Shown: positions 1,203 to 15,925, counted from the first letter of the stretch. The stretch is 64,000 bases of DNA from an uncultured Myxococcaceae bacterium (GCA_964505355.1 CAZDHU010000035.1:2002-66001), one strand, 5' to 3'. A program made the numbers and translations. The notes: generated from the sequence alone by a model not told the origin.

Positions 1203-1946
1203 TCACTTCCGCAGTCGTGCGACCCAGCAGCGTGTGGTGTACGGGACGGAGATCTTTCCGGATGGCGGCAGCACGCGCCGAATCGCGTCGACGACGCGGT
1301 CGAACGCCTCACCGGCCTGGCGCTGAAGCGTCGCGTGAGACCGCCACGCGTCGATGTAGTCCTCGACGCGTGTGGGCGCGACCGATCGTGCTTCGACGTG
1401 ATCGACGGCTTCGAAGAGGCCGGAGTCGTCGATCACTGCCGTCTGGTCTTCGCGTCGAACACCGTGTCCATAGTCGGGCACGTGAGCGGTGATCGTCGCC
1501 TCGACTTCCTTCTGCAGCGGATCGTCGAGATCCCGGTGGTTCCACAGGCACCCAAACCAGCCCCGCACGACGGCGATTCGTGCGACCTCGCGCAGCGCGG
1601 CAGCCCGATCGACCACGTTGAACGAGGAGCCGAAAAAGACCATCGCGTAGCCATGGTCCGGAAGACCCGTCTGCTCGCCCGTGCCCTCGCTCCAGCACAC
1701 GTCCGCACCGCGCGTGTTTTCGATCCCGATCGCGCGCATCGCGTCATTCGGCTCGACGGCGTGCACGCGCAGGCCGCGCGCCACGAGCGGACGCGTCAGC
1801 TTCGCGGTTCCCGCACCGATGTCGGCGACCCGATCTCCGCGCGACAGCCCGGCGATTTCGACCAGCCGATCGATCGCGTTCGGCGCGTATTCGGCGCGCC
1901 GGTCGTAGTAGGGCGCGAGTGCGGTGTAGTTCCAGGTCGTCTGCAT
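1203..1946 (-). CDS. Class I SAM-dependent methyltransferase (candidate phosphoramidate O-methyltransferase, Cj1419/Cj1420-like role)
   Basis: 247 aa from ATG 1944-1946 (MQTTWNY...). SAM motif I VADIGAGTAKLT. The longer 641-aa track ORF upstream is Arg/Ala-rich read-through. Last gene of the train containing the phosphoramidate cassette. Confidence 0.85.
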   Translation of the reverse strand: MQTTWNYTALAPYYDRRAEYAPNAIDRLVEIAGLSRGDRVADIGAGTAKLTRPLVARGLRVHAVEPNDAMRAIGIENTRGADVCWSEGTGEQTGLPDHGYAMVFFGSSFNVVDRAAALREVARIAVVRGWFGCLWNHRDLDDPLQKEVEATITAHVPDYGHGVRREDQTAVIDDSGLFEAVDHVEARSVAPTRVEDYIDAWRSHATLQRQAGEAFDRVVDAIRRVLPPSGKISVPYTTRCWVARLRK

Positions 1947-2032
1947 GTCTTCTCCGCTTCGAACTCGTGCGCAGCCTACGCCAGAGAGACCACAGGCGCA
2001 GGTCGTCGTTCCGCCACGTCGTGCTTCATCGC

Positions 2033-3187
2033 TCAGGCAATCGGATTCACCCCCCATCTCGGATGTCGCACCGTTCGCTCGTAGAGCCATTCGATCTCGT
2101 CGGGTTCGAGCAGCATTCGACAGACGGCCGCGAAGAACGAATGCAACGCGGGCACCTCGGCGGACGTTTCGGCCACGGCGTAGGCCCAGTTCTCCGCGAT
2201 TCGATGCTGCCGAACGGGCGTGCACCGCGTGTCGAGCCGGCGTTCGATGCGACCAGACGGCTCCTGCCAGAGCATCGGAGCGCCCGCGGCGTCGTGCGGT
2301 CGCACGAAAACGCGTCGCTGGACGAGCGTCCGCAGGTCGACGATGGGACGTCTCGCGGCGCGCTGGAGCCAGCCGTCGAGGTGACTCTCGTCGGCCTCGT
2401 ATCCCATCCAGCGCAGGAACGCGCGCATCAGCGCTCCGTCGTAGTGGGCGAGTTCGACCGGATCGTTCCGCTCCTTCCACTCGAAAGACCGTCCCCGATG
2501 AATCGCCTGCATCGACCCGCCCGGCATGCGACGGGCGAGCATGTCTCGCGCGCGCTCGGTCGACGAGCTCGCAATCGCCCGGCGGATGCACGCGTCGTCC
2601 CGATGGCGCGAACCGAGGAAGGCGAGAACGCCGGCGAGCGTCTCCTCGGGCCGTTCTTTCAGATCCTCGAAGCGCACGAAGCGGATGGGCCGAACCCGAC
2701 TCGCGTGCAACCAGCGCAGGTGAAACAGCAGATACGTCTTCACGGCATCCAGCCAGAACAGGCCGGGAAAGTGATCCGGCCAGTCCGTGCGCCAGTCGAG
2801 AAACTCGGGCAACTCGCCCGGATACCAGCCGTTCATCTTCCAGCGGCGATGCAAAGAGAAGATCGCGTCTCTCGGGTCTCGCACCACGACGACCACCGGA
2901 CACGCGGGATCGATGTCGAAACGAACGCGATGCTCCCAGAAGAGCTCGATCTCCGGGATGAATCGGTGTCGCTCGCGTTCGAGCAAGATGGGAAGGTGGT
3001 GGACGATGTGTTTCCGAGCCGCCTCGCCGACGCGATACTCCCCGTCGCCGACGTCTTCCCAGTGGTTCTTCTCGTAGAGCAGAGACGTCGTTCGATGCCC
3101 GAGGGCGAGCATCGCGTTGACGAGCCATGCCAGTCCGCAGGCGAACGGAGCCGAGGTCAGAAAGGCCACGCGTCGAACGCGCGTCAT
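2033..3187 (-). CDS. Sulfotransferase-fold protein with divergent 5'-phosphosulfate-binding loop (candidate phosphoramidate transferase)
   Basis: 384 aa from ATG 3185-3187, overlapping the upstream stop as ATGA. 3'-phosphate-binding-like motif VVVVRDPRDAIFSLHRR and the FVRFEDLKERPEETLAGVLAFLG segment are typical of sulfotransferases. The N-terminal P-loop position reads SAPFACGLAWL instead of PKxGTTWL, so the Lys is absent. Confidence 0.75.
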   Translation of the reverse strand: MTRVRRVAFLTSAPFACGLAWLVNAMLALGHRTTSLLYEKNHWEDVGDGEYRVGEAARKHIVHHLPILLERERHRFIPEIELFWEHRVRFDIDPACPVVVVVRDPRDAIFSLHRRWKMNGWYPGELPEFLDWRTDWPDHFPGLFWLDAVKTYLLFHLRWLHASRVRPIRFVRFEDLKERPEETLAGVLAFLGSRHRDDACIRRAIASSSTERARDMLARRMPGGSMQAIHRGRSFEWKERNDPVELAHYDGALMRAFLRWMGYEADESHLDGWLQRAARRPIVDLRTLVQRRVFVRPHDAAGAPMLWQEPSGRIERRLDTRCTPVRQHRIAENWAYAVAETSAEVPALHSFFAAVCRMLLEPDEIEWLYERTVRHPRWGVNPIA

Positions 3188-3906
3188 CGCCAGTGCTCGA
3201 CGTCGCTCTCGCTGTCGAACTCCCACCAGGCTTCGTCGGTGTCGATGGTGTCGATCCGTTCTCCGGCCTCGATCATCGTCTGCAGAAGGCTCGTCACGTC
3301 GATGTCGCGAAAGCGCTCGGACGAGAGGGTCGAGAGCGTCGCTTCGATGCGACTCCACCCGTCCGGCGTGATCGCGAGCAGCCCCATGAACTGCCCCTCG
3401 ATCTCGTGCATGCCCGAAGGGCGGCGACCGATCTCGACCAGCCTGCCCGCGGCGTCGCGGCGAAAGGTCTCCGCGTCGGCGAGGGGATCGGCGAATCGCC
3501 GTTCCCAGATCTCGCGCCAGCGCGTGTTGTTCGCGACGACGATGTCCCCGGGTGCATCGGCCAACCTCAGGATCGTCTTTGCACCGAACAGAATGTCCGA
3601 ATAACACACGATGCCGGGCGCCTCGATCATCCAGGGTCGGGCCTGCCACAGCGAGTAGACCATGTTGGTGGTCTCCCACTGCGCATTGTGAAACGTCCGC
3701 CGGAACGCTGGCCCCTCGAGCAGATCGGCCCGATACCCGGTGACGATCGCGAGCTCGCGGATTCCGCCACCGCGCAGGGCATCGATCGCGGATTCGAGAA
3801 GGGGGCGCCCGTCGACGGACAGCAGACACTTCGGGCGCTCTTCGGTGAGCCCCTTCATGCGGCGCCCTCGACCGGCGGCGAGGATCACGGCGCGCCGGGT
3901 GCTCAC
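3184..3906 (-). CDS. MobA/LicC-like nucleotidyltransferase (Cj1416-like CTP:phosphoglutamine cytidylyltransferase candidate)
   Basis: 240 aa from GTG 3904-3906 (GTGA overlap with the upstream stop). N-terminal AVILAAGRGRRM nucleotide-binding loop. Sits between the amidotransferase and the sulfotransferase-fold gene. Confidence 0.75.
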   Translation of the reverse strand: MSTRRAVILAAGRGRRMKGLTEERPKCLLSVDGRPLLESAIDALRGGGIRELAIVTGYRADLLEGPAFRRTFHNAQWETTNMVYSLWQARPWMIEAPGIVCYSDILFGAKTILRLADAPGDIVVANNTRWREIWERRFADPLADAETFRRDAAGRLVEIGRRPSGMHEIEGQFMGLLAITPDGWSRIEATLSTLSSERFRDIDVTSLLQTMIEAGERIDTIDTDEAWWEFDSESDVEHWR

Positions 3907-4517
3907 GCGATCCCAAAATGGACGCGCAGCATCTCGGTGTCCGCGGAGGTCGGAACACGCTCCCGCTCGGGATGCCACATCACCCCCTGCACCCGCCGGT
4001 CCTTCGCTCTCACCCACTCGACGTGACCTTCGACCGTCCGTCCGAGCACTTCCCACTTCGCGGGTTCTCTTCGAATCGCAAACTGGTGATAACTGTTCAC
4101 TTCGCGCATCGGCCGGCCCGTCTCGTCGAGCAGTGCGTGCCGTGTCTTCACGTGGCCATCCACCCGCTCCAGTTCTCCTCCGAATCGCTCGCACAGGAGC
4201 TGAGCCCCGCGACAGATGCCGAACACCGGGATCGCGCGCTGAAGCGCGTCGTCCAGCAACCGCGCCTCCGTTTCGTCTCGCTCGGATCGATCGCCCCCGA
4301 GCGTGCAGAGATCGTTTCCCCCGCTCAGCAAGAGACCGTCCGGTCGCAACCGGTCGATCGCCCCGAAGTCGAGACTCGGCTGATTCGGAATCAGAATCGG
4401 CGCCGCGCCGATGTCGCACAGCAGCCGCGAGAGCCGCTGATCGAGTGCGTCTCTCACCTCGCCGATGTCGCCGTGCACGTCGACCCGACAGGAGACCAGA
4501 ATCAGCGGTCGCGTCAT
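3903..4517 (-). CDS. Class I glutamine amidotransferase / peptidase C26 family (Cj1417-like gamma-glutamyl-CDP-amidate hydrolase candidate)
   Basis: 204 aa. Nucleophile elbow PVFGICRGAQLL and His-Glu motif GVMWHPE. ATGA overlap with the upstream gene at 4514-4517. Confidence 0.85.
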   Translation of the reverse strand: MTRPLILVSCRVDVHGDIGEVRDALDQRLSRLLCDIGAAPILIPNQPSLDFGAIDRLRPDGLLLSGGNDLCTLGGDRSERDETEARLLDDALQRAIPVFGICRGAQLLCERFGGELERVDGHVKTRHALLDETGRPMREVNSYHQFAIRREPAKWEVLGRTVEGHVEWVRAKDRRVQGVMWHPERERVPTSADTEMLRVHFGIA

Positions 4518-6829
4518 CGAAGAATCTTGACCTGCCGGTTGCAGCCATCGATCGACAATCGCCGGGCACGAGACCAGGCCCCGTAGTTCGTCTCGCCCGC
4601 ACCGACCACGGCCGGCAGTTTCATCTCGGCTGCTCGGATGGCCATGTGCGAGTTGACGCCGCCGTACATCGTGACGAATCCCGCGATCCGTCGGGTGAAG
4701 ATCCAGTCGAAACCGGGATCTGCGTTCTCGATGAACACGATTTTCCCCCGCAGGTCGTCGCGCTCCGAATCGAGCACGGCGACGTCGGCCTCGACCGAGC
4801 CGAGGGTGACGAAGTTCGGCTCGGTTTCCAGAACGTGGAAGGTCCAGACGTCTTCCGGCGATACGATCAGGCTCGGAAGAACGAGTGCCCGGGTGACTTC
4901 GTGCGCCCGGCGTCCCTGTTCGATCGAACGCGCCATCGCAGCGGCCGGACTCTCGCAGGAACCGAACAACCTCTGGACGGCCCGAACGTCGAGGTGGCTG
5001 GAATCGTCGAGATCGAATCCGTGTTCTCGGCCGAGTCGCCCGATCTCGACCAGCGCGTCGCTGACGTTCCGCGTGAACAGGAATTTCGCGTACTCACGCC
5101 CTTCGATCGCACACTTCAGGAACTCGAACAGTCCGAGCACGTCGAGATCGAGCCGATGTGCGCGCAGCTCCGTCTGGATCGTCGTGTACTGCTCGATCGA
5201 GAGACGGAACGGGGTCGCCGCCGGAATCGGACTCTTTCGTTCCCAGTCGAAGTATCGATCGGGGTCCTCGTCGTACCGGGGAGACAGGATGTCGTAGGTG
5301 CCCGGCCGAAGATGTCCGTAGACGGCGAGAAATGCCTCGCGAGGAAGTCTCGCGTGATCCCGCGCCATCCGCGTACTCACGGTGTCGAGCGACCCCATGA
5401 ACTCGGCGCACTCGCGATCGGTGAGAATTCCGGACGACACCATCGACTTCAACATCTGAACGGCGATGAATCCGGCGCGGGCGAGTCCTGCGAACGGGAG
5501 CGTCCCGTACCGCTTGCAATCTTCGAGCAGCCAGTAGATGCGCTCGATTCGATTCATCGAACTCGACGCCAGCGCCCGATGCCGCTCTTCGAGAATCGAG
5601 AGCCGTTCGAGATCCTTCTTCCAGAGTCCGGTCTCCGGCGCGACGATGCGGACCGTCAAGGCACGGAGGCTCTCGACGATCCGCGTGATTTCGTCCGAGG
5701 TGAACCCGAATCCGCGCAGCCGTTCGATCTCTTTTTCGAGCTCGAAGTGATGACAGGAGAAAGCGATCTCGAACTCGACCTTGTCGTGGAGCTGTGGCGA
5801 GCTCGCCAGCCGGTCGAGGTAGTGCTCGACGAGTTTGTTCGCGAGCGCTTCGGGGACGTCGGCGGGAACGAACGAATTGAAATCGACGCGCACGTCGACG
5901 TACGGGCATCCGTGAAGGCTTTGGATCAGCGGCTGGCTTCGCAGATTTCGGTAGCCGTAGTTGTCGCGCTGGTACGCCCAGGTGCTGTCCGTGACGAGTT
6001 CCGTGTACAGCGAGAGCGCGAGCGGGCGAGGGCGCACGCCGACGATCTCCGCCGGATTCCAGTCGGGCATGATGCCGAAGAGGGTTCGAGATCCGAGCAG
6101 GAAGGGTTTCGGCTCCATCCATTGCGTGACCTTGTCGTGAATCTCGACGAGGCGCGCCCGCAGGGCCTCGGTTTCGACGCGACACTCCCGAGCGAGTACA
6201 AGCGGACGCACCTGCAGCAAATGAAGTCGATGGGCATCGTCGATGGCGAACTCGACGTCGAGCCGGTCGGAGCCAAACCGGGCTTCCAGCTCGTCGAGCA
6301 GCGCGTGAAGTTCGGGAAATTCCGCGCGCGCGTGCGACGGCGGCGACGAAAACGAGATCGCGGTCCTCGTCGCGCGACCGAGCCCCGAAGTCACGCCGTC
6401 GGTCGCGCCCGAATCGTCGTAGTTGATCACGCGGTAGGGCGATCCCGTGGAGGGATCGCGCGTGAAGGCCACCCCCGAACGAATCACGCGCCGGACCATC
6501 GGCTGCACGAAAAGGTGTTCGTCGTCGTCGAGCGGGTCGTACCGTTCGAAGACGGCATCGATCGCCGTTCGCAATCGATTCGCGTCCTGCACGTTCGGAA
6601 TCGAGAGGTATCGCCCGGCAAGAGAGCGCTCGATGCCATCCTCTCCGCTCGCACTGCTCCGGACGATCAGCGGTTCGGCGAATCCGAGCGTTCGTTCGAC
6701 GCGCCGGAGACACGATTCGGGATCACGCCGCCACTCGCCGAACGAAAGCAGACAGGAGGCGGGGATCACCGCGTGTTGCAGCGTTTCGCGAAGCGATTCG
6801 AGCGTCGTCGCCTTCGTTCCCGGCTTCAT
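4514..6829 (-). CDS. PEP-utilising-enzyme family kinase: ATP-grasp/PPDK_N domain plus phosphohistidine swivel domain (Cj1418-like L-glutamine kinase candidate)
   Basis: 771 aa from ATG 6827-6829 (ATGA overlap). N-terminal PPDK_N-type motif IVRSSASGEDG..SLAGRY. C-terminal mobile-domain motif GGVNSHMAIRAAEMKLPAVVG. No PEP/pyruvate TIM-barrel domain recognisable. Confidence 0.85.
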   Translation of the reverse strand: MKPGTKATTLESLRETLQHAVIPASCLLSFGEWRRDPESCLRRVERTLGFAEPLIVRSSASGEDGIERSLAGRYLSIPNVQDANRLRTAIDAVFERYDPLDDDEHLFVQPMVRRVIRSGVAFTRDPSTGSPYRVINYDDSGATDGVTSGLGRATRTAISFSSPPSHARAEFPELHALLDELEARFGSDRLDVEFAIDDAHRLHLLQVRPLVLARECRVETEALRARLVEIHDKVTQWMEPKPFLLGSRTLFGIMPDWNPAEIVGVRPRPLALSLYTELVTDSTWAYQRDNYGYRNLRSQPLIQSLHGCPYVDVRVDFNSFVPADVPEALANKLVEHYLDRLASSPQLHDKVEFEIAFSCHHFELEKEIERLRGFGFTSDEITRIVESLRALTVRIVAPETGLWKKDLERLSILEERHRALASSSMNRIERIYWLLEDCKRYGTLPFAGLARAGFIAVQMLKSMVSSGILTDRECAEFMGSLDTVSTRMARDHARLPREAFLAVYGHLRPGTYDILSPRYDEDPDRYFDWERKSPIPAATPFRLSIEQYTTIQTELRAHRLDLDVLGLFEFLKCAIEGREYAKFLFTRNVSDALVEIGRLGREHGFDLDDSSHLDVRAVQRLFGSCESPAAAMARSIEQGRRAHEVTRALVLPSLIVSPEDVWTFHVLETEPNFVTLGSVEADVAVLDSERDDLRGKIVFIENADPGFDWIFTRRIAGFVTMYGGVNSHMAIRAAEMKLPAVVGAGETNYGAWSRARRLSIDGCNRQVKILR

Positions 6830-7365
6830 GCGATCGCTCCGAGCAGCGTTCCCCGAATCGTCGCCATCGCCTGCTCCCGCATGCCGGCGATCGGCAACCC
6901 GGATTCGCCGAGGTCGAACACGAGATCGGGATGCGCCGGCTCTTCCGGCTCCAGATCCACGCCGACCACCGGACCCGTACCCGGCTTCGCAGCGTAGAGG
7001 TCGTGCTGGTTCCGGGCTCGCAGCAGGGCGTTCGGAGCCCGCAGGTAGATCTCGAGATAGCGCGGAACGCGTCTGCGATTTCGTTCTCGAACGGACTCGA
7101 ACATCGAGACCGTACAGCAAATCACGTTCACGCCCTGGTCGGTGAGCAGCGTGCAAAGGCGCGAGTAGAACTGCGCGCAGCGGAGTCGTCCGTCACGGTC
7201 GTATCCAAAGACGCCACCGGCGACTTCGCGCAGCTCGTCGCCGTCGAGCAAGACGGCGGGCGTACCGGAGGCCACGAGCGAATCACGCAGACTTCGTCCC
7301 AGCGTCGTCTTTCCGGAACCCGCGAGTCCGGTGACCCAGACCAGAAATCCTTCTCTCGCCTCCAT
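6826..7365 (-). CDS. Adenylylsulfate-kinase-fold kinase (Cj1415-like cytidine diphosphoramidate 3'-kinase candidate)
   Basis: 179 aa from ATG 7363-7365. The track start at 7401 is a TTG. P-loop VTGLAGSGKTTLG and LLDGDELR as in APS kinases. No ATP sulfurylase gene nearby. Confidence 0.8.
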   Translation of the reverse strand: MEAREGFLVWVTGLAGSGKTTLGRSLRDSLVASGTPAVLLDGDELREVAGGVFGYDRDGRLRCAQFYSRLCTLLTDQGVNVICCTVSMFESVRERNRRRVPRYLEIYLRAPNALLRARNQHDLYAAKPGTGPVVGVDLEPEEPAHPDLVFDLGESGLPIAGMREQAMATIRGTLLGAIA

Positions 7366-7397
7366 TCCGAGCACGTTCACCGTCCTCGCACATCGAG

Positions 7398-9017
7398 TCA
7401 AGCGCCCCCCGCGCTCTCCAGCCCGGCGAGCTCGACGGCATCCGCCGCTGCAGGCTTCGGCCCCGTCTCGCCGGCGAGTTCGGATTTCGGTGGTGAATCG
7501 CGCTCGGCCGGCGGTGCGTTCGGCGTGACGCCCTCCGTGTCAGGCGTTTCGATCGCCTGTCCCTCGTCCCGGGCGGCGAGATCGACCAGCCGCTCGCGAA
7601 GCGACGACTCCGTCTCTCCGGTCAAGACCAGTGCGCCGAGCGCGTGATCTCCGATTCGATCGAAACGCAGATCGATGGGGCCCGTCTCGTGATGCACGGC
7701 GAACCATCGTTCGTCACCGCCACGAAGCCAGCGATGGAGATGGTCGGGAACTCGCGTGGTCCGGCGCAGCAGGTTGTAGCGCCCGACCACGTCGACGAGG
7801 TCGATTCGGGTCTCCATCCGCCACGGCTTCGCGATCGTCGATGCAACGTGCTCGAGCCTCTGCTCTTCGCGCTGCTCGCGATCGGCCCGGGTTCGACGAC
7901 GCCCGAGCCCGCGCAGCCACCCCCTCCGCGCCCCGGCCGCCAGCGAAGCGTCGAGTTCGAAGCGCGTCTTCGCGGAAGCCGCGGCGCGGTCGTCGCGAAT
8001 CACGCGCGCGACGAGGCTGCGCGAGATCGGACCGCGCACGGCGTGGAGACCTCCATCGAAGGCCCAGATTTCGTATCCATCCTTCCGCGCCTCGATCCGG
8101 CGCGGTTCGGCGGCGTCACCGGCTGCGAGCGTCGGCCCCCAGGACGCCGGCACCGAACGCCCGCGCTCGCGACGCAGCCACGAGTCGAACGCGCGCGCGC
8201 GCGCCGACAGAAACTCCCGAAGCCAGCGTTCGAAATCGGCTGGACAGCGGACGGAGTCCCCGACGAAGGCGGGTTCATCGAGACGAAGCAGGGCGGTATC
8301 GACGTCCGTGCGCACGCCGAGGAAGGAGAACACGCCGTCGATGGCGCTTCGCGGATCGGTCTCGACGTCTTCCAGAAAACCGACGTGAATCTGCGAAGAA
8401 TGAAACACCGACGAGAGCCGTTCGAGCAGTCCGAGCGGGTCGACGGCCGTGAGCATCACGTCCGAGAGCGCGGCCGCGCAGAGCGCGCGTTCCTCGAGAT
8501 TTCCAATCGAACAGTCGGCATCCGCAAAGGGAGCTTCGCGCCAGCGACAGGCATGACGAATCAGCGACCACATGTGGTCGACGGGCTCGCGCAACCAGAC
8601 GATCCAACGAACGTCCGGTCGGAGTTCTCGGATGGTGCGCAACGCGGTGCGAGGAAGTCCGGCATTCGGCGTCGCATCGCCGCGACACGTCGAACTCACT
8701 CCCGCGAAGTGATCGAGATACCGGTCGACGCCGTGTTCGCGCCAGCCCGTGTCGAAGTAGTGCAGTTCTTTTTCTCGAGGCAGATGGACGTCCGGATGAC
8801 GGCGCAGAACGTCGGCCAGCCAGGTGGTGCCGGTCTTACCGGGAGACGCGAAGAGAAATTCGGGAAATAACGATTCGCGTCCACGCGGGATCCGTCCGAT
8901 CCGTTGCGCGTATCGAGCCCAGAGCCAGTGCTCGTTCGGGTACAGGGGCTCGGGCTCGCCTCGAGTCGAGGACGTCCCGGGATCGGCATCGTCGTATTCG
9001 GACGCCCCGCGCTTCAT
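7398..9017 (-). CDS. Canonical sulfotransferase domain fused to a ~250-aa C-terminal domain of unknown function
   Basis: 539 aa from ATG 9015-9017 (MKRGASEY...). 5'-PSB loop SPGKTGTTWL and 3'-PB motif WLREPVDHMWSL. The C-terminal half carries two copies of a Y-(N/E)-hydrophobic ... aromatic-aromatic-(A/G)-(V/L) module that also occurs in the adjacent radical SAM protein. Confidence 0.8.
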   Translation of the reverse strand: MKRGASEYDDADPGTSSTRGEPEPLYPNEHWLWARYAQRIGRIPRGRESLFPEFLFASPGKTGTTWLADVLRRHPDVHLPREKELHYFDTGWREHGVDRYLDHFAGVSSTCRGDATPNAGLPRTALRTIRELRPDVRWIVWLREPVDHMWSLIRHACRWREAPFADADCSIGNLEERALCAAALSDVMLTAVDPLGLLERLSSVFHSSQIHVGFLEDVETDPRSAIDGVFSFLGVRTDVDTALLRLDEPAFVGDSVRCPADFERWLREFLSARARAFDSWLRRERGRSVPASWGPTLAAGDAAEPRRIEARKDGYEIWAFDGGLHAVRGPISRSLVARVIRDDRAAASAKTRFELDASLAAGARRGWLRGLGRRRTRADREQREEQRLEHVASTIAKPWRMETRIDLVDVVGRYNLLRRTTRVPDHLHRWLRGGDERWFAVHHETGPIDLRFDRIGDHALGALVLTGETESSLRERLVDLAARDEGQAIETPDTEGVTPNAPPAERDSPPKSELAGETGPKPAAADAVELAGLESAGGA

Positions 9018-9028
9018 CCCTGCACGCG

Positions 9029-12000
9029 TCAGGCGACGGGCAAAGACTTCGACTGTGACGCGAGAAGCTCGCGAATCTCTCCTTCGACGACGTCTCGCGA
9101 GACGTCTCGCACGACGCCCGGCATCTCCATCACGTCGACGGTCTGCAAGTCGAGGGAGCCGAGTGACTGCGGAAGCCCGTAGAACCAGCCCTCGAACTCG
9201 ACCACGTTGTAGTCGCCCACCGCGCAAACGAGACGCGGCGCCGACGAGCGACCGGACGCGCCCGCCGACTCGCTCGCGAGCCGATCGCGTCCTTTCGCGC
9301 GCTCGCCGCGAAGCCTCGAATAGACGCCCGCGGCGAGCCGGCGGATCTGACGCCGCACACCGTCCGCCGCGGACCCCGTCTCCTCGCCGGATTCGATCCG
9401 TTCGACGATCTCTCGCATCGCGCGCGCGGTCAGCACGCCCGGCAACGCGTCGACCGGCTCTTCGCCCCAGCGAACCGCGCCGCACGCATGAGGCACGCCG
9501 TAGTAGACACCGTCGTACTTCACGATGTTGTACGAACCCATGGTCCGCAGGAGCTCGGGGTTCGCGCCGCGGGTCACGACGGACACGAGCTCGAGCCGGC
9601 CTTCGAGATCCACGCTCGATGCTTCGGTCAGGCCGAGTGACGCGACCTCCGCGCCGAGCACGCTCGCGAGCGCATCGCGATCGATCACGAAGCGTTCATC
9701 GCCGAGACGAATCACACCGACGCGCGGCGCGGTGCGACCCGGCTCTTGCTCCGGCCACGCGCTGTCGGCGCGAAACTGCCCGGCACCCGCGAGCGCCGAG
9801 TCCACGCCGGCCGGGCCATCCGATTCGTACTCCCCCATCGGATTGAGCGTCGGCTGGCTGACCGGTGCCGCATCCCGCCCGTTCGTGTCTCCCCGCACGT
9901 CGACACCACCCTCGAGCGACGGTCCTTCGCACGCCGAGGCGGCGACCGCGTTCCGATCGAGGCCGGACGCGTCGGACTCGTGTTCCGGCACCGCCGGGTG
10001 GGTTCCGCGCGGACGTCCCTGCTCGTCGAAATTGGGGTCGTTCTGCTCGGACATGCCGGAGCGGCTCGGATCTTTCGCCGTCTCCACGACGTCGATGATC
10101 TTCGATGCCCAGGCGCCGACGTCGAAGCCGTTGTCACGCAACGCGTGGACGATCCGGGCAAAGCGCCGCTTGCGAACGTCGACGTCGATGAACGGGTTCT
10201 CGCTGTGCCAGAGATTCGCGGGCATCGCGCGAGGAAACCGTTCGTAGAGCGCTTCTCTGGGTTCGTGGAACACGATTCCGTGCTTCTCGGGCTCCAGCCA
10301 GTAGACGCTCCCATTCACCATGATCAGCGGGTTGATGTTCGCGAGACGCCCGATCCACGGTTTGCAGCGCACGATCAGATCGATCGATTCGTCGACGTCG
10401 GTCTCGGTCTCGCCGGGAACCCCGATCACCCAGTTCACTTCCGTGTAGATGCCGGCCTGCCAGCAATCGCGCAGATTCTGCTCCACGTCTTCGGTCGTGT
10501 ACCCCTTCTTTTGCATGCGAAGCGTATTCGCACTGAACGCGTCGACGCCGAATCGAAGCGCGACGAAACCCGCCTCGCGCAACTTCCGAAAGAACGCGGC
10601 ATCGCTCTTCTTGTGAATCCGAAGCTGCCCCGTCAGTCGTACGTTCAGTCCGCGACGAATGATTTCGTCACAGATCTCCAGCACCACCTCCGGCATCCCG
10701 TTCAGGTCGCTCTCGTTGAACATGAAGAGATGACAGCCCTGGGACGTCAGCCATTCCAGCTCGTCCACGAACACGCTCGGCGAGTGGATCCGCCAGAGAA
10801 AACGCTCCGCGCAGAACGTGCAGCGCGACCAGCGACAACCGCGGCTCGCGAGCACCGGTGTCAGCTGGTATCCGTCGAAGTTTCGATACAGATCGAGGTC
10901 GAACCACTCGTACCTGGGAAACTCGAGCAGGTCGAGGTTGTGCGGCATGGGCCCCGGCACGAACGTCCAGTCGGGGTCGTCGAAGCGCGACAGGACACCG
11001 GGTTGATTCTTCGGCCGCTCGCCGCGGGCGAGCGCTTCGATCAGCGGCCCCACGGTGAGATCGGCTTCCGAGATGCACATGAAGTCGGCTTCGGGGAACG
11101 CGCGCCGACCGACGCTCGCGTGGTAACAGCTGAATCCGCCGACGACGATGACGGTGTCGGGCAGGCGCGCCTTCACCCCGTTCACGACTTCTCGCGAGAA
11201 TCTCTCGCTGCACTCCTGAATCGAAAGTCCGAGCACCTTCGGAGCCGCGCGCACGATTTCGTCGACGATCTCGTCGATCTCCGGACGGAACCATTCGATC
11301 ACCGCGGGATCTGCCCACGTGTCGTAGTGTTCGGCCTTCCACGGATCGACGGGCAGTTCTCGACCGTTCGGGAGCACGGTCCGTCCGCCCTGGTCGAAGA
11401 GGCGACGGACGTGGAATCGGTGATAGATCACGGTGTCGAGGTCGAAGGTCTGCCAGCTGACGCCGGTCTTCTTCAACGCGTTGTGCACGTACCCGATGCC
11501 GTTCGGCATCAGGCCGAGGTTTCGCGCCGGGCAGTCGATCAGCAGCAGGTCGAGGCCGGGACGAAACTCGATCGGCGGAATCTCGATCGGATAAATGATC
11601 TCACGCGACCACGGCGTCCACGCGTGTGCGGGAATCGATTCGAGCGAAATTTCAGGCAGCACTTCGGGATCGATCACGCGCAGGCGCGGTTCCAGGCGGG
11701 CGCGCATGCGCCAGCGAGCGAGTGTCCGCGTCTCGGCGAGGAACACCGTCTGCACCTCGTCCGGCAGGCGGGCGGGAGGAATCTCGGCGAGGGCCGCGAG
11801 GGCGGGTACCGGGCCGTCGGCACCGGCATCGACGATCCGCCAGCGAACGTGGCGAACGAGGTCCGGAGTTTCTCGAACCAGCGCGGCGAGAAACTCCGCG
11901 TTTCCCCACAGCGCGAGCCCCGGCACCTGCAGGAGATGTTCGCCGAGTCGCCGCAGCGGTTCGCGTTCGGCGGGATCCCCGGCAAGACGCAGGCACTGGT

Positions 12001-12085
12001 GAGGACTGAATCGCACCAGCGTACCGTCGACGGAAAACGGCCGACCCCGGTGACGGAGTGTCAGCGTGCTCGGACGTCGTTCCAT
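9029..12085 (-). CDS. B12-binding-domain radical SAM protein with N- and C-terminal extensions
   Basis: 1018 aa from ATG 12083-12085, preceded by GGGAGC SD. GTG at 12109 is an alternative start. The cluster motif is GCRWSRCTFC (CX4CX2C), verified on the nucleotide sequence at 10811-10837. A B12-binding-like Rossmann region lies upstream, and a ~330-aa C-terminal tail carries two YN(I/V)V..(Y/F).G.(Y/F)YG(V/L)P repeats. Confidence 0.85.
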   Translation of the reverse strand: MERRPSTLTLRHRGRPFSVDGTLVRFSPHQCLRLAGDPAEREPLRRLGEHLLQVPGLALWGNAEFLAALVRETPDLVRHVRWRIVDAGADGPVPALAALAEIPPARLPDEVQTVFLAETRTLARWRMRARLEPRLRVIDPEVLPEISLESIPAHAWTPWSREIIYPIEIPPIEFRPGLDLLLIDCPARNLGLMPNGIGYVHNALKKTGVSWQTFDLDTVIYHRFHVRRLFDQGGRTVLPNGRELPVDPWKAEHYDTWADPAVIEWFRPEIDEIVDEIVRAAPKVLGLSIQECSERFSREVVNGVKARLPDTVIVVGGFSCYHASVGRRAFPEADFMCISEADLTVGPLIEALARGERPKNQPGVLSRFDDPDWTFVPGPMPHNLDLLEFPRYEWFDLDLYRNFDGYQLTPVLASRGCRWSRCTFCAERFLWRIHSPSVFVDELEWLTSQGCHLFMFNESDLNGMPEVVLEICDEIIRRGLNVRLTGQLRIHKKSDAAFFRKLREAGFVALRFGVDAFSANTLRMQKKGYTTEDVEQNLRDCWQAGIYTEVNWVIGVPGETETDVDESIDLIVRCKPWIGRLANINPLIMVNGSVYWLEPEKHGIVFHEPREALYERFPRAMPANLWHSENPFIDVDVRKRRFARIVHALRDNGFDVGAWASKIIDVVETAKDPSRSGMSEQNDPNFDEQGRPRGTHPAVPEHESDASGLDRNAVAASACEGPSLEGGVDVRGDTNGRDAAPVSQPTLNPMGEYESDGPAGVDSALAGAGQFRADSAWPEQEPGRTAPRVGVIRLGDERFVIDRDALASVLGAEVASLGLTEASSVDLEGRLELVSVVTRGANPELLRTMGSYNIVKYDGVYYGVPHACGAVRWGEEPVDALPGVLTARAMREIVERIESGEETGSAADGVRRQIRRLAAGVYSRLRGERAKGRDRLASESAGASGRSSAPRLVCAVGDYNVVEFEGWFYGLPQSLGSLDLQTVDVMEMPGVVRDVSRDVVEGEIRELLASQSKSLPVA

Positions 12086-12136
12086 GTCCGGGCTCCCTTC
12101 CCGACGCACGCGACGCAGGACGTCGGGCGCGCGTCT

Positions 12137-12589
12137 CTAGAGTGCGACGTCGACCAGAGCAGATCCCCGCAACGCATCGACGCCGTCGAGAATCTCGTGA
12201 ACCTGCCAGCTCGCTGCACGATCGGACTTCGCTGCGATCTCGGCTGCGATCGCCGTTTCTCCAAAGGCCGGGATCACGATCACCGGCTTCCCGTGCTTGC
12301 GAGCCAGTTCGAACTCGAGCTCGAGCCACTTCCGCGAACTCGCCTGCGCCCACACGCTGGCGAGCGCGATCACCGCATGAACCGGAACGATCTGCGCTTC
12401 GAGCCATCGTCGCACGAACGTTCCTCCGTCCGCGCTGTTCGCACTCACCGCCGGGTCGTGCCAGGGCACACTGAAGTTCCGCCACTGCAGACCGGGCTCC
12501 GCATCGAACAGCGCGACGAGCCGATTCCAGTCGTCGTGATAGCGCCATGCATGCGTGATGAAGAGGTCGTATCGCGGTCGCGCCGTCAC
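12137..12589 (-). CDS. TIR-like domain protein (DUF1863/MTH538-type, ThsB-like fold)
   Basis: 150 aa from GTG 12587-12589 with a strong GGAGG SD 5-6 nt upstream. N-terminal YDLFITHAW, then SRKWLELEFELARKHGKPVIVI, a typical TIR-like layout. Embedded between the YfhO-like and radical SAM genes with 34- and 51-nt gaps. Confidence 0.75.
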   Translation of the reverse strand: MTARPRYDLFITHAWRYHDDWNRLVALFDAEPGLQWRNFSVPWHDPAVSANSADGGTFVRRWLEAQIVPVHAVIALASVWAQASSRKWLELEFELARKHGKPVIVIPAFGETAIAAEIAAKSDRAASWQVHEILDGVDALRGSALVDVAL

Positions 12590-12623: not shown

Positions 12624-15320
12624 TCACACTAGCTCACGCGACTTCGCCTGGCGTCGCCGCGAATCGACGAATGCGAACGCCCCGAGCGCCGCACAGGTGG
12701 CCAGCAGTCCGGCTCCCGACAGGCGCTTGCCTCGCGCCAGCGCCGGCGGCGAATACCACAGCTCGAGTCGTCGGGCTCCGGCCGGAATCCCGATCGCCAT
12801 GAATGCGAAATCGGCCCGCATCACCGCTTGCTCCGCACCGTCGACCGACGCGTGCCACCCCGGGTCGAACACGTCACCGAAGAACACGATCGTCGGAGCG
12901 ACGCCGCCGACGGGAATCACGATCCGGTCGCTCGTGAGCTCGTCGAAGGCGAGATCGATCGCTCGGCCGCTCGTCGCAGCGACACCGCCCGGGGGGTCTC
13001 GATCGAGAACGAGCCGGCGCAATGGATCGAAGTCCAAATCCGTCAGCCTCCGGAGCGCGTCTTCGTCCCCGGGAATCACTTCGAAGTCCGAGCAGGCGAC
13101 GAATCGGGAGAGCGCGCCCGGGCGGCGCTGAACCTGCCCGCGCGAGACTCCCTCGAACCCCGCGCCGAGCAGATCGAGCAGGCGCGGATCGTTCACCTCG
13201 GGCGTCATCGCGCCCGGGCCGAAGGGTGGATTCGGCTCGAACGCGGACACGAGTCGCGACAGGCGTTCGCCTCGGAGCGAGTTCACGCCACCCATCGAGC
13301 GGATCCCGTGAACCGTGAAGACGTTTCCCTGAAACTCTTCGGCGGCGATCCCGAGCGCGACGTGGGGTCGGTTGACGCGCCATCGTGCGAGATCGGAGGC
13401 GGACAGGTCGAAGGTCGCCGTCTCTCCGCGAGAGCGATCGATCTTACCGGGACGCCAGAACGGTTCGGTGATCACGTGCTGATACTCGCGGTTCGCCGGC
13501 GCGAGGTCGGCGAACAGCACGAGCCCGAGCGTCACGACGAACGCTTCGGAGCCGATTCTCCCCGTACGCAGGGCGCCGAGCGCGGGCACCAGAACCGCCG
13601 TGACGAGCAGCAGCCGGCCGACTCCGAGCAGCGCCAGCAGCGCCGCATTCGGCAGCGTCGGATGCGCCCCTTCCGGTAAGGGGATCACCATCACCACCAT
13701 CACCAGCCCGAGCGCCAGCCAGCGGAGCCTCCCTGCGATCCGCTCTCTTCCGGACGAAGCGTCGAGCAGAGATCGCCAGAGCAGAAGGATCGCAGCGATG
13801 CTCGTCTGGATCAGCACGAACGAGCAAACGAAGAGATCGTCTCTCCAGCCGGCGAACCATGCGACGATCCCGACCACGACGGCGTCGATGCCCACGGCGC
13901 ACCAGACCGCGAGCGGACGCCCGAGCAGCGAACTCACCGACGACGGACGCACGAAGACCAGCGCCGCCGCCGCGAGCGCGAGCAGCACGACGCATGCGAC
14001 GGGATGGATCGCCTCGGGCCTCAGATAGAACCACGGAACGGCGCTCGCACCGGCAGCGAGCAGCGCGCATGCCGCGAGAACGCGCACGGGGTCTCCGAAG
14101 GCGCCGGGCTCGTCGATCGCCGTCCGGAGCGCGGACGCGAACGCTCCCAGCAGCGCCACCGGAACCAGAAGACGCGGAATGATCGCATGGATGTAGGGAA
14201 AGAAGAGCGTCCAGATCAAATCGGCAAACGGGCGCACGGACAGAAACCAGACCGTCGCCGCGACGAAGAACGCAGGCCAGAACGGACGCATCCCGCGGCG
14301 CCGGCGCGCGAGTGCGAGCAGGACGAGCAGCATCGTCGCCGCCCCGGCGTACGGATGGCCGTCGATCTGATGATGCTGCACGGGTTCCCACCAGACGTAG
14401 TGCTGCAACAACCGCTTTGCGGTCTCGATCTGAATGCCGAGCGCCTCGGGAACCAGCGCTGTGACGCCGTACAACGGATCGTTCATGTGGCCGCCGAACG
14501 CGTGGTGAAACGAATCGGTGAAAACGCGATCTCCGCCGTGCAGCGCACCCGCGATCGGAAGCAGCCGAATCATCGCGACCAGCAGAGCGCAGACGAACGC
14601 GGTCCCGGCGATCCACGCCAGTGCGTTCCGGGGCCAGCGTCCGAGCTCGGCAGGGTTCAGTCGGTAGACGACGAGAATCCCGAGGGCGAGCAGGATTCCC
14701 GCGCCGTACACCACGTTCCCGGTCGTCAGTACGATCAGAATCGAACACCAGACGGCGAGAAACGTTCGCCAGAGGGCGCGGCGATCGATCGTCCAGATCG
14801 CGGCCAGCGCGCCGTAGAGCGCCACGTGGAGCGTCAGACACGCGTAGGTGGTGACCGCGAAGAACGCGTTGGTCCCGATCTGGGCGGTCAGCGCCGCGAG
14901 AAGTGCGACCGGGCGACTGCCGAACTCTTCGCGAAGAAACGCCCATGCGAATCGTCCGAGAAGCCACGTTTCGATCGCCACGCGGAGATGAAAGCCCCAC
15001 TTGAACCAGCCGCGCGGCAACAGGAAGAGCGGCCAGGATGCAGGCGAGTAGAGAAAATTGTGGGTGCTCCCGGAGAAATCGATTCCGCCGAGAAGCTGCG
15101 GATTCCACAGCCCCCATCCTCCGCGACGAAGCTCGGCGGCCGTGAACAGGTGATTGGGAAAGATCGCGAACCAGTTGTCGGTGCTCCCGACCAGCGCTTT
15201 TCCCTGAAGCAGCGGCGGGAGGTAGATCAGGCACGCCGTCGCGAGGAAGAACCACGTCGCGCTGCGATCGGGTCGCGCGAGCAGGCGCTCGCGAAGCCGG
15301 GAAGTGACGCCGGCCGTCAC
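12624..15320 (-). CDS. Large polytopic membrane protein, YfhO/GT-C-like glycosyltransferase
   Basis: 898 aa from GTG 15318-15320 (GTGA overlap with the gmhB stop). More than 12 predicted hydrophobic helices followed by a ~230-aa soluble C-terminal domain and a final TM segment. The N-terminal region resembles the YfhO family. The family call is by eye only. Confidence 0.65.
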   Translation of the reverse strand: MTAGVTSRLRERLLARPDRSATWFFLATACLIYLPPLLQGKALVGSTDNWFAIFPNHLFTAAELRRGGWGLWNPQLLGGIDFSGSTHNFLYSPASWPLFLLPRGWFKWGFHLRVAIETWLLGRFAWAFLREEFGSRPVALLAALTAQIGTNAFFAVTTYACLTLHVALYGALAAIWTIDRRALWRTFLAVWCSILIVLTTGNVVYGAGILLALGILVVYRLNPAELGRWPRNALAWIAGTAFVCALLVAMIRLLPIAGALHGGDRVFTDSFHHAFGGHMNDPLYGVTALVPEALGIQIETAKRLLQHYVWWEPVQHHQIDGHPYAGAATMLLVLLALARRRRGMRPFWPAFFVAATVWFLSVRPFADLIWTLFFPYIHAIIPRLLVPVALLGAFASALRTAIDEPGAFGDPVRVLAACALLAAGASAVPWFYLRPEAIHPVACVVLLALAAAALVFVRPSSVSSLLGRPLAVWCAVGIDAVVVGIVAWFAGWRDDLFVCSFVLIQTSIAAILLLWRSLLDASSGRERIAGRLRWLALGLVMVVMVIPLPEGAHPTLPNAALLALLGVGRLLLVTAVLVPALGALRTGRIGSEAFVVTLGLVLFADLAPANREYQHVITEPFWRPGKIDRSRGETATFDLSASDLARWRVNRPHVALGIAAEEFQGNVFTVHGIRSMGGVNSLRGERLSRLVSAFEPNPPFGPGAMTPEVNDPRLLDLLGAGFEGVSRGQVQRRPGALSRFVACSDFEVIPGDEDALRRLTDLDFDPLRRLVLDRDPPGGVAATSGRAIDLAFDELTSDRIVIPVGGVAPTIVFFGDVFDPGWHASVDGAEQAVMRADFAFMAIGIPAGARRLELWYSPPALARGKRLSGAGLLATCAALGAFAFVDSRRRQAKSRELV

Positions 15321-15925
15321 CGGAGCGCGGCCTCGGTGTCGACGATGGTCCGAACGGCATCGGCCAGATCGCGTGCCCGGAGCGTCGGCCGATGGGTCTC
15401 CGATCGTTCCGCCGGATGATCGGGGTCGACGAGGATCGTCCGGGTACCGGCGCGCGTTCCACATTCGACGTCGGTCGCGCGGTCACCGATCATCCAGCAG
15501 TACGAGAGTTCCAGTCCGAGATCGAGGGCCGCTCGGCACAGGAAATGGGGAGACGGCTTGCGACACTCGCAGACGCCACTCCACTCCGGCACGACCCCGT
15601 TCGGATGATGAAAGCAGTAGAAGCTCGCATCGAGTCCGATGCCCGCGGTCCCGAGTTCGTGCTCCAGTCGCTCGTGCACCGCCCGCAGCGACGCGAGCGA
15701 CGTCTTCCCCTTCGCGTGGCTCGGCTGGTTCGAGACGACGACGAGCTTCCAACCGTCACGCCGAAGCGCTGCGAGCGCCTCCTTCACCCCATCGTGGAGC
15801 ACGAGATCTCCGGGCTCGCGCGGCGATTCCCATTCGCGCGACGAGGCGTACCAGACGTTACGGTTCAGCACCCCGTCCCGATCGAGAAACACCGCGCGAC
15901 GTCGACTCAACGCACGGATTCCCAT
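15317..15925 (-). CDS. gmhB: D-glycero-D-manno-heptose 1,7-bisphosphate phosphatase (HAD-IIIA)
   Basis: 202 aa. HAD motif I FLDRDGVLN, motif II VVVSNQ, CxHxxxxxCxCRKP zinc-binding loop (CFHHP...CECRKP), and GDRATD. Confidence 0.85.
   Translation of the reverse strand: MGIRALSRRRAVFLDRDGVLNRNVWYASSREWESPREPGDLVLHDGVKEALAALRRDGWKLVVVSNQPSHAKGKTSLASLRAVHERLEHELGTAGIGLDASFYCFHHPNGVVPEWSGVCECRKPSPHFLCRAALDLGLELSYCWMIGDRATDVECGTRAGTRTILVDPDHPAERSETHRPTLRARDLADAVRTIVDTEAALR

What the first reader, a model, noticed from the sequence alone, without database searches (positions are those of the whole stretch)
7560..9545. Uncharacterised repeat module shared by the C-terminal tails of the radical SAM enzyme and the adjacent sulfotransferase
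The last ~330 aa of the radical SAM protein contain two copies of a ~60-aa unit: ...MGSYNIVKYDGVYYGVPHACGAVRW..ALPGVLTARAMREIVERI (nt ~9380-9545) and ...VGDYNVVEFEGWFYGLPQSLGSLDL..EMPGVVRDVSRDVVEGEI (nt ~9032-9230). The C-terminal half of the neighbouring sulfotransferase carries two degenerate copies: DGYEIWAFDGGLHAVRGPI (nt ~8030-8085) and VGRYNLLRR...ERWFAVHHETGPIDL...LVLTGETESSLRERL (nt ~7560-7790). I do not recognise this as a named domain. Its presence on two different catalytic scaffolds encoded side by side suggests a common docking, substrate-carrier or glycan-binding module.
Basis: seen in the sequence. Interest (0 to 1): 0.6.

Follow-up and report, generated by a model that had tools for sequence, protein, structure and literature searches.

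The report
Unnamed shared tail repeat on glycan enzymes
The radical SAM enzyme and the neighbouring sulfotransferase-like enzyme both end in copies of a small, about 60-residue folded repeat that is in no domain database searched, yet tags many different sugar-chain-building enzymes, often several in one gene cluster, across many bacterial phyla.

Summary
The radical SAM protein (9029-12109, minus strand) ends in two clear copies of a ~60-aa unit (BLASTP E=3e-10; 74-78 bits each against a unit profile).

The sulfotransferase-fold neighbour (7398-9017) carries two very divergent copies:
- S2 matches a 665-unit profile over 56 columns (hhalign 94%, P=1.6e-7). It has a 15-aa insertion. No shuffle of 5000 reaches its score, and it ranks third of 35,887 ORFs in the genome.
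- S1 is weaker by sequence (P=2e-4), but AlphaFold2 folds it confidently into the same order of strands and helices as the radical SAM units.

The unit has no model in Pfam or NCBIfam and no PDB match by sequence or fold. An exhaustive search finds it in 1,122 protein clusters, usually as C-terminal arrays of 2-13 copies. Its carriers include radical SAM, GT2, GT4, methyltransferase, acyltransferase, GT-C-like and NRPS-like enzymes, and also predicted lipoproteins.

Around radical SAM orthologues, 20 of 27 loci hold two to seven genes that carry the unit.

It is a new accessory domain family of glycan-assembly enzymes. I think it most likely tethers enzymes to the shared polymer. Enzyme-enzyme docking is the main rival. 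The function is untested.

The parts
9029..12109 (-). B12-binding radical SAM enzyme (1026 aa) carrying two tail units
   Evidence: Pfam Radical_SAM 1.4e-12 and B12-binding 3.1e-6. It has 48 orthologues with 2-3 tail units.
9380..9562 (-). Tail unit R1 (aa 850-910): NPELLRTMGSYNIVKYDGVYYGVPHACGAVRWGEEPVDALPGVLTARAMREIVERIESGEE
   Evidence: 74.5 bits against the unit HMM. AlphaFold2 pLDDT is above 90, with three strands, a short turn, a fourth strand and a helix. Translation checked.
9065..9241 (-). Tail unit R2 (aa 957-1015): APRLVCAVGDYNVVEFEGWFYGLPQSLGSLDLQTVDVMEMPGVVRDVSRDVVEGEIREL
   Evidence: 77.6 bits. BLASTP against R1 gives E=3e-10. Mean pairwise identity among 47 orthologues is 65%. 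Translation checked.
7398..9017 (-). Sulfotransferase-fold enzyme (539 aa) with a divergent two-unit tail. Its start codon lies 11 nt after the radical SAM stop codon.
   Evidence: Pfam Sulfotransfer_3 and Sulfotransfer_1. Start codon read. One orthologue, P0054.
7929..8108 (-). Degenerate tail unit S1 (aa 304-363): EPRRIEARKDGYEIWAFDGGLHAVRGPISRSLVARVIRDDRAAASAKTRFELDASLAAGA
   Evidence: hhalign P=2.1e-4 over 49 columns. AlphaFold2 pLDDT is 85-90 with the same order of secondary structure as R1 and R2. It aligns collinearly with unit 1 of the sulfotransferase-like proteins of the Methylomicrobium-type cluster.
7581..7802 (-). Divergent tail unit S2 (aa 406-479) with a 15-aa insertion in the hairpin: DLVDVVGRYNLLRR[...]ERWFAVHHETGPIDLRF...LVLTGETESSLRERLVD
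   Evidence: hhalign probability 93.9%, P=1.6e-7, 56 columns. HMM score 13.8 bits; no shuffle of 5000 reaches it; third-best ORF in the genome. The AlphaFold2 model is of low confidence here.
12137..12589 (-). 150-aa TIR-like gene directly upstream of the radical SAM gene. This is context: a conserved companion, not a carrier of the unit.
   Evidence: Pfam ThsB_TIR 8.4e-6. A 142-153-aa gene holds the same position before the radical SAM orthologue in L004, L006, L007, L008 and L009.

Best explanation
The unit is a real domain of about 60 residues that folds on its own. It has a three-stranded beta meander (PxL[VLI]..., [YFH]N[ILV][VI]x[YF], Gx[FY][YF][GA][VIL]P), an LGxxD[LW] turn, a fourth short strand (PG[VI][IL]) and a C-terminal helix. 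It is a non-catalytic accessory module that evolution has appended, mostly as C-terminal arrays of 1-13 copies, to the enzymes that build and decorate one surface polysaccharide. In this window it sits on the B12-radical SAM enzyme (two good copies) and on the adjacent sulfotransferase-fold enzyme 11 nt downstream (two eroded copies).

The most likely mechanism is inferred, not shown. Each unit would bind the common polymer substrate, the nascent or lipid-linked glycan chain. Every tailoring enzyme of the cluster would then be held on the same chain, and tandem copies would add avidity. This would work much as cell-wall-binding repeats hold many unrelated enzymes on one polymer.

Shown here: the domain exists; it is absent from Pfam, NCBIfam and the PDB; it occurs on many catalytic scaffolds; it accumulates within clusters; and forms with signal peptides or lipoprotein signals are predicted.

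Inferred: that the ligand is the glycan. The confidence given is for this specific mechanism. That the unit is a real, shared, non-catalytic module I hold at about 0.9.
For: - The domain is real and widespread. It occurs in 1,122 clusters at 50% identity with E<=1e-3, and 501 with E<=1e-10. The AlphaFold2 units have pLDDT above 90.
- Its partners are almost all glycan enzymes: radical SAM 9, GT2 8, Methyltransf_24 7, GT1/4 6, Acyl_transf_3 3, plus YfhO and PMT, out of 64 proteins.
- One Nitrospira locus has seven carriers: SPASM radical SAM, GT2, B12 radical SAM, GT4, an AT3 acyltransferase and two proteins of unknown family.
- 20 of 27 loci of at least 15 kb hold two or more carriers. The unit is otherwise rare: 0 of 40 related genomes have it, and this genome has three carrier proteins.
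- Variable tandem arrays of up to 13 copies, with a median period of 69 aa, are typical of polymer-binding repeats. They are hard to explain for one-to-one docking.
- Proteins made only of units with lipoprotein or Sec signal peptides exist (P0093, P0104, P0160). The unit is also fused behind GT-C-like polytopic domains (P0006). So the unit is predicted on both sides of the membrane, where the glycan is the obvious shared ligand.
- Conserved aromatic and polar positions (Y11, N12, Y16, Y21, D31) fit a sugar-binding surface.
- In GT2-[units]-GT4 proteins the array lies between the two catalytic domains.
Against: - There is no binding data and no structural similarity to any known carbohydrate-binding module.
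- Units of different enzymes in one locus are only about 30-40% identical. Each enzyme's unit is conserved with its orthologue across phyla, and the nearest neighbour lies in another locus for 54 of 58 units. This is the pattern expected of specific docking contacts as much as of a common ligand.
- The last radical SAM unit is 65% identical across phyla. That is more even conservation than a single sugar-binding patch would need.
- The membrane side of the GT-C-fused and AT3-fused units could not be fixed with the crude hydropathy analysis.
- Signal peptides were judged by eye and by a simple rule, not by a trained predictor.
- The sulfotransferase copies are so eroded that they may no longer bind anything.
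Confidence: 0.45

Rival explanations
1. The unit is a protein-protein docking or scaffolding module. The tails of the different enzymes bind one another, or bind a common cluster protein such as the conserved TIR-like companion, the Wzm/Wzt exporter or a scaffold made only of units. The tailoring enzymes would then assemble into one complex at the membrane, as PKS/NRPS docking domains, dockerin-cohesin pairs or the WbdD-WbdA pair do.
For: - Up to seven enzymes of one cluster carry the unit.
- Each enzyme's unit is distinct and conserved with its orthologue rather than homogenised within a locus, as expected for specific pairings.
- The terminal radical SAM unit is conserved along its whole length.
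- Some carriers continue into long coiled coils, as WbdD-type terminators do (the L004 methyltransferase and the L006 sulfotransferase-like protein).
- Cytoplasmic proteins made only of units exist and could be scaffolds (P0069).
Against: - Arrays of 10-13 copies on a single enzyme are excessive for docking.
- Predicted lipoprotein and secreted forms, and GT-C fusions, place the unit outside the cytoplasm as well.
- AlphaFold2 did not pack the two radical SAM units against each other (pTM 0.43).
- No partner has been identified.
Confidence: 0.3
2. The unit is a structural spacer or self-association element with no external ligand. Arrays would form a rod or oligomer that sets the distance or stoichiometry of catalytic domains relative to the membrane or to each other, like a molecular ruler.
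For: - The copy number varies from 1 to 13.
- Arrays are inserted between GT2 and GT4 domains in nine proteins.
- Some carriers combine the unit with coiled coils.
Against: - Many carriers have a single terminal unit, which cannot act as a spacer.
- Long disordered linkers separate the radical SAM units.
- Strong conservation of specific polar and aromatic residues suggests a binding site.
Confidence: 0.1
3. Only the radical SAM tail carries functional units. The sulfotransferase 'copies' are decaying relics, or partly chance resemblance, with no shared role.
For: - Pairwise BLASTP is not significant (E=0.098) and the small HMM gave E=0.32.
- S2 has a 15-aa insertion and lacks the consensus Y/G/P of strand 3, and AlphaFold2 is unsure of it (pLDDT 35-67).
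- S1 lacks the LGxxD turn.
Against: - The large-profile statistics (P=1.6e-7; no shuffle of 5000; third of 35,887 ORFs) rule out chance for S2.
- The motif residues are the best-conserved part of the tail between the two orthologues at 55% overall identity, which argues for continued selection.
- S1 folds confidently into the unit topology.
- Sulfotransferase-like proteins with an analogous weak-unit plus full-unit tail sit next to radical SAM orthologues in other phyla.
Confidence: 0.1

Closest known systems
Cell-wall/choline-binding repeats (Pfam CW_binding_1) of Gram-positive surface enzymes
   Same: A short beta-hairpin-based repeat rich in aromatic residues. It forms C-terminal tandem arrays of variable copy number, is shared by many unrelated catalytic domains, and directs them to one polymer. 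This comparison rests on my own knowledge of the family, set.
   Different: There is no sequence match (Pfam scans). The unit here is three times longer and includes a helix. Most carriers are cytoplasmic glycan-assembly enzymes rather than secreted hydrolases. Ligand binding is untested.
WbdD-WbdA terminator-polymerase complex and Wzt C-terminal carbohydrate-binding domain of ABC-transporter-dependent O-antigen assembly (PMC3482155; PMC11231755)
   Same: These are non-catalytic C-terminal parts of cytoplasmic O-antigen enzymes or exporters that recruit them to each other or to the finished glycan. Wzm/Wzt genes lie in the Methylomicrobium locus that has six unit carriers. Some carriers also have WbdD-like coiled coils.
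   Different: WbdD uses a coiled coil and an amphipathic helix. Wzt_C (PF14524) is a beta-sandwich. Neither resembles this unit by sequence or in the PDB fold searches.
Dockerin modules of cellulosomal enzymes and docking domains of PKS/NRPS assembly lines
   Same: A small module shared by many enzymes of one pathway, usually at the C-terminus, that brings them together.
   Different: Dockerins are Ca-binding duplicated helical loops. PKS docking domains are short helices. No cohesin-like partner is known here. No sequence match was found in the Pfam scans and no fold match in the PDB searches.
RiPP recognition element (PqqD-like) of radical SAM maturases
   Same: A three-stranded sheet followed by helices, attached to radical SAM enzymes. 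The radical SAM core here scores best, though below cut-off, against RiPP C-methyltransferase models.
   Different: An RRE is one N-terminal copy of about 85 aa with three helices. Here the unit is a C-terminal repeat of about 60 aa that also sits on GT, methyltransferase and acyltransferase enzymes in sugar clusters. Foldseek listed no RRE structure among the 50 matches shown for each model.

Membership tests
Any Pfam-A (2025) or NCBIfam (r20) domain or repeat family | Significant hmmscan match of the unit region | tested here: not met
   The tails of P0001 and P0002 are not covered. P0006 (5 units) and P0033 (11 units), scanned at E<=10, give only scattered sub-threshold hits to unrelated families. 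NCBI names a unit-only protein 'hypothetical protein'.
Any protein of solved structure (PDB) | Sequence-profile or fold similarity | tested here: not met
   The profile search gives a best E of 0.22. Foldseek gives a best E of 0.67 for the radical SAM tail model and 0.82 for the sulfotransferase tail model, all at low probability. The power of a fold search is limited for a 60-aa domain.
The new tail-repeat family itself (unit profile A2/big.hmm) | Full-length match to the 62-position profile with the PxL / [YFH]N[ILV][VI]x[YF] / Gx[FY][YF]G[VIL]P / LGxxD / PG[VI] / helix layout | tested here: met
   R1 and R2 score 74-78 bits. S2 matches 56 of 62 columns with P=1.6e-7 and an insertion. S1 meets the feature only in part: P=2e-4, no LGxxD turn, but the same predicted topology.
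Choline/cell-wall-binding repeats (PF01473) and MORN repeats (PF02493) | Hairpin repeats of 20-23 aa with GW/YxG signatures detected by the Pfam model | tested here: not met
   There is no PF01473 hit. MORN scores E=0.21 at residues 581-592 of P0006, outside the units. The unit period is about 62-69 aa and includes a helix.
Carbohydrate-binding module (functional class) | Demonstrated binding of a glycan by the isolated domain | not testable with these tools
   Only indirect support is available: the partner enzymes, the tandem arrays, and the predicted presence on both sides of the membrane.
Docking/scaffold domain (functional class) | Specific binding between tails or to a common partner protein | not testable with these tools
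   No multimer prediction tool was available. The two radical SAM units are not packed in the monomer model. Units are conserved with their orthologues and are not homogenised within a locus.

The most novel reading that the evidence does not exclude
The units form a docking code for a glycan-tailoring assembly line. Each of up to seven enzymes in a cluster carries its own variant of the same 60-aa domain, conserved with its orthologues. These variants would fix the order or position of the enzymes on a scaffold (unit-only proteins, the exporter, or the conserved TIR-like companion of the radical SAM enzyme). A polysaccharide would then be modified in a programmed sequence, the glycan counterpart of PKS/NRPS docking domains.
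Probability: 0.15. Interest if true: 0.8.

Novelty: new variant of a known kind. Interest (0 to 1): 0.55.

Why it matters
How the many tailoring enzymes of a bacterial surface-polysaccharide pathway find the same growing chain is understood for only a few model O-antigens. These enzymes include glycosyl-, methyl-, acyl- and sulfo- or phosphoramidate transferases and radical SAM enzymes.

A small, widespread and unannotated domain marks up to seven enzymes of one cluster. It also occurs as lipoproteins made only of units. This gives a concrete handle on the question.
- It can be expressed alone, its ligand or partner can be fished out, and it can be deleted.
- It can serve as a genomic marker to assign orphan enzymes, including many with no Pfam domain, to glycan pathways in Nitrospira, methanotrophs, Acidobacteria, Planctomycetes and others.
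- At the least it deserves a domain-database entry.

Tried and rejected
- Pairwise BLASTP of the two tails (E=0.098) and a 24-unit HMM (E=0.32) did not detect the sulfotransferase copies. Only the broad profile did.
- Homologue searches for the sulfotransferase, over the whole protein and over the tail alone, found a single orthologue. No intermediates could be collected.
- BLASTP of P0002 against the sulfotransferase-like unit carrier of Methylomicrobium showed no similarity between the catalytic domains. A profile comparison aligned only the tails, and weakly (P=0.011).
- The search for related loci with the diverse unit alignment failed because no conserved 7-10-column stretch exists. The radical SAM tail alignment was used instead.
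- The PDB sequence search and two Foldseek searches gave no credible match. I considered RRE, dockerin, Wzt_C, MORN and choline-binding repeats and rejected each as the family.
- Forty genomes of the same family or order lack the unit, so vertical conservation could not be used.
- A test for concerted evolution of units within a locus was negative.
- Hydropathy and positive-inside counting could not fix the topology of the membrane-fused carriers.
- AlphaFold2 of the sulfotransferase tail was confident only for S1.
- Two full-text literature searches found no description of the unit.
Full report
**What is at the site.** All relevant genes lie on the minus strand of a GC-rich (about 65%) surface-glycan locus. 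In order they are:
- a PEP-utilising PRK05849-type enzyme (4514-6829);
- an APS-kinase-like protein (6826-7401);
- a sulfotransferase-fold protein of 539 aa (7398-9017);
- a B12-type radical SAM protein of 1026 aa (9029-12109);
- a 150-aa TIR-like protein (12137-12589);
- a YfhO-like polytopic protein (12624-15464).

Around them lie a methyltransferase gene, nucleotidyltransferase genes (one fused to a SIS isomerase domain), GHMP kinase, dehydrogenase and epimerase genes, and a second radical SAM gene. The sulfotransferase start codon lies 11 nt after the radical SAM stop codon.

**The radical SAM repeats.** Residues 850-910 (R1) and 957-1015 (R2) align with each other by BLASTP at E=3e-10. 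A search restricted to the tail found 48 orthologous radical SAM proteins of 945-1169 aa with two or three such units. It also found a polytopic membrane protein with five units (P0006) and a Magnetobacterium GT2 with eleven (P0033). The unit is therefore a genuine repeat of about 62 aa, not a local duplication. Its consensus is xPxL[VLI]xSxxx[YFH]N[ILV][VI]x[YF]xGx[FY][YF][GA][VIL]PxxLGx[VI]D[LW]...PG[VI][IL]xxx[ST]xxE[VL]xxxI.

**The sulfotransferase copies.** The first tests were negative or marginal: BLASTP E=0.098, a 24-unit HMM E=0.32, and hhalign against 44 units P=0.003. I then rebuilt the profile from 668 units, and the picture changed.
- The protein scores 13.8 bits. No shuffle of 5000 exceeds 6.0 bits. 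In a six-frame scan of the whole 3.75-Mb genome its ORF ranks third of 35,887, behind the radical SAM protein and a GT2 on another contig. The next ORF scores 5.5 bits.
- hhalign gives S2 (aa 406-479) probability 93.9% and P=1.6e-7 over 56 of 62 columns, with a 15-aa insertion between strands 2 and 3. It gives S1 (aa 304-363) P=2.1e-4 over 49 columns.
- AlphaFold2 run on just the two orthologous tails folds S1 at pLDDT 85-90 as strand-strand-strand-helix-strand-helix. That is the same order as in the high-confidence radical SAM units. S2 stays at low confidence.
- The single orthologue (55% identity) keeps the motif residues of both units.

I conclude that S2 is a true divergent unit and that S1 is very probably an eroded one.

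**Is it a known domain?** Pfam-A (2025) and NCBIfam r20 have no model for it, even when the 5-unit and 11-unit proteins are scanned at E<=10. The PDB has no relative by profile (best E=0.22) or by Foldseek (best E=0.67 and 0.82). NCBI calls a protein made only of these units 'hypothetical protein'. Two literature searches found nothing. HHpred against profile libraries could not be run here.

**Distribution and architecture.** An exhaustive HMMER search of 1.84 billion representative proteins finds 1,122 clusters at E<=1e-3 and 501 at E<=1e-10. Among the top 149:
- the proteins hold 2-13 units at a median period of 69 aa;
- in 128 the array ends within 35 residues of the C-terminus;
- in nine it lies between two catalytic parts, for example GT2-[units]-GT4.

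Partner domains among 64 multidomain proteins are Radical_SAM (9, with B12 or SPASM), GT2 (8), Methyltransf_24 (7), GT1/4 (6), Acyl_transf_3 (3), YfhO, PMT and an NRPS-like A-T-TE. About 20 are polytopic membrane proteins. Several unit-only proteins begin with lipoprotein or Sec signal peptides (P0093, P0104, P0160, P0204). Others, such as Nitrospina P0069, have none. Some of the apparently unit-only entries may be fragments from short contigs.

**Clustering in loci.** None of 40 genomes of the same family or order has the unit, so it travels with mobile glycan clusters. Radical SAM orthologues occur in Nitrospira, Methylobacter, Methylomonas, Methylomicrobium, Acidobacteria, Planctomycetota and Alpha- and Betaproteobacteria.
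- Of 27 such loci of at least 15 kb, 20 hold two to seven unit-bearing ORFs.
- Methylomicrobium sp. wino1 has six next to Wzm/Wzt. One is a sulfotransferase-like protein with a weak unit, a full unit and a coiled coil.
- A Nitrospira locus has seven: SPASM radical SAM, two unknowns, GT2, B12 radical SAM, GT4 and AT3.
- Units are not homogenised within loci. For 54 of 58 units the nearest relative is the orthologous unit in another locus.
- The terminal radical SAM unit is 65% identical across the family, against 83% for the radical SAM core.

**Interpretation.** For mechanism I favour polymer (glycan) tethering, at about 0.45, for three reasons. Long variable arrays suit a repeating ligand. 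The unit is predicted on both faces of the membrane. All carriers of a cluster share one substrate.

Enzyme-enzyme docking (about 0.3) is favoured by the enzyme-specific, orthologue-conserved unit variants and by the WbdD-like coiled coils. A pure spacer or oligomerisation role, and the view that the sulfotransferase copies are functionless relics, are less likely (about 0.1 each). None of this is shown experimentally.

**Context from earlier notes.** Earlier notes of this scan read the neighbouring genes as a Campylobacter-type phosphoramidate-donor cassette. My Pfam and NCBIfam hits (PRK05849, APS-kinase-like) are compatible with that. If it is right, the 'sulfotransferase' may transfer phosphoramidate rather than sulfate. 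That does not change the reading of its tail.

Noticed in passing
window 12137-12589 (-); L004 9523-9984; L006 9517-9969; L007 1775-2203; L008 9527-9979; L009 9494-9952: A 142-153-aa TIR-like (ThsB_TIR, weak) gene sits immediately upstream of the tail-bearing B12-radical SAM gene in every locus examined, across several phyla. This looks like a conserved two-gene unit. The protein could be a dedicated partner of the radical SAM enzyme, for example a flavodoxin-fold reductant or regulator, rather than a defence protein.
   Followed up: partly
own genome contig C65:13927-15309 (-), outside the window: A GT2 glycosyltransferase on another contig of the same genome ends in one clear copy of the unit (35.7 bits). 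It is the only other carrier in the genome. Its neighbourhood was not examined.
   Followed up: partly
L006 6223-8226 and L004 7652-9403: A sulfotransferase-like protein and a Methyltransf_24 protein next to radical SAM orthologues carry the unit followed by a long heptad-like coiled coil. This is reminiscent of WbdD-type O-antigen chain terminators.
   Followed up: no
P0044, P0047, P0049 (radical SAM orthologues): In some orthologues the first of the two terminal units is split by an insertion of about 50-60 aa between the LG turn and the PGV strand. The unit therefore tolerates large loop insertions, which makes the 15-aa insertion in S2 less odd.
   Followed up: no
window 4514-7401 and 1203-4602: The PRK05849-type PEP-utilising enzyme (918 bits), the APS-kinase-like protein, an NTP-transferase fusion and a methyltransferase flank the sulfotransferase-fold gene.
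   Followed up: no
window 9029-12109, aa 700-850: The window's radical SAM protein belongs to a shorter two-unit subfamily (with P0018, P0026, P0038, P0042, P0043). It lacks the first of the three units that most orthologues carry at about residue 770.
   Followed up: partly
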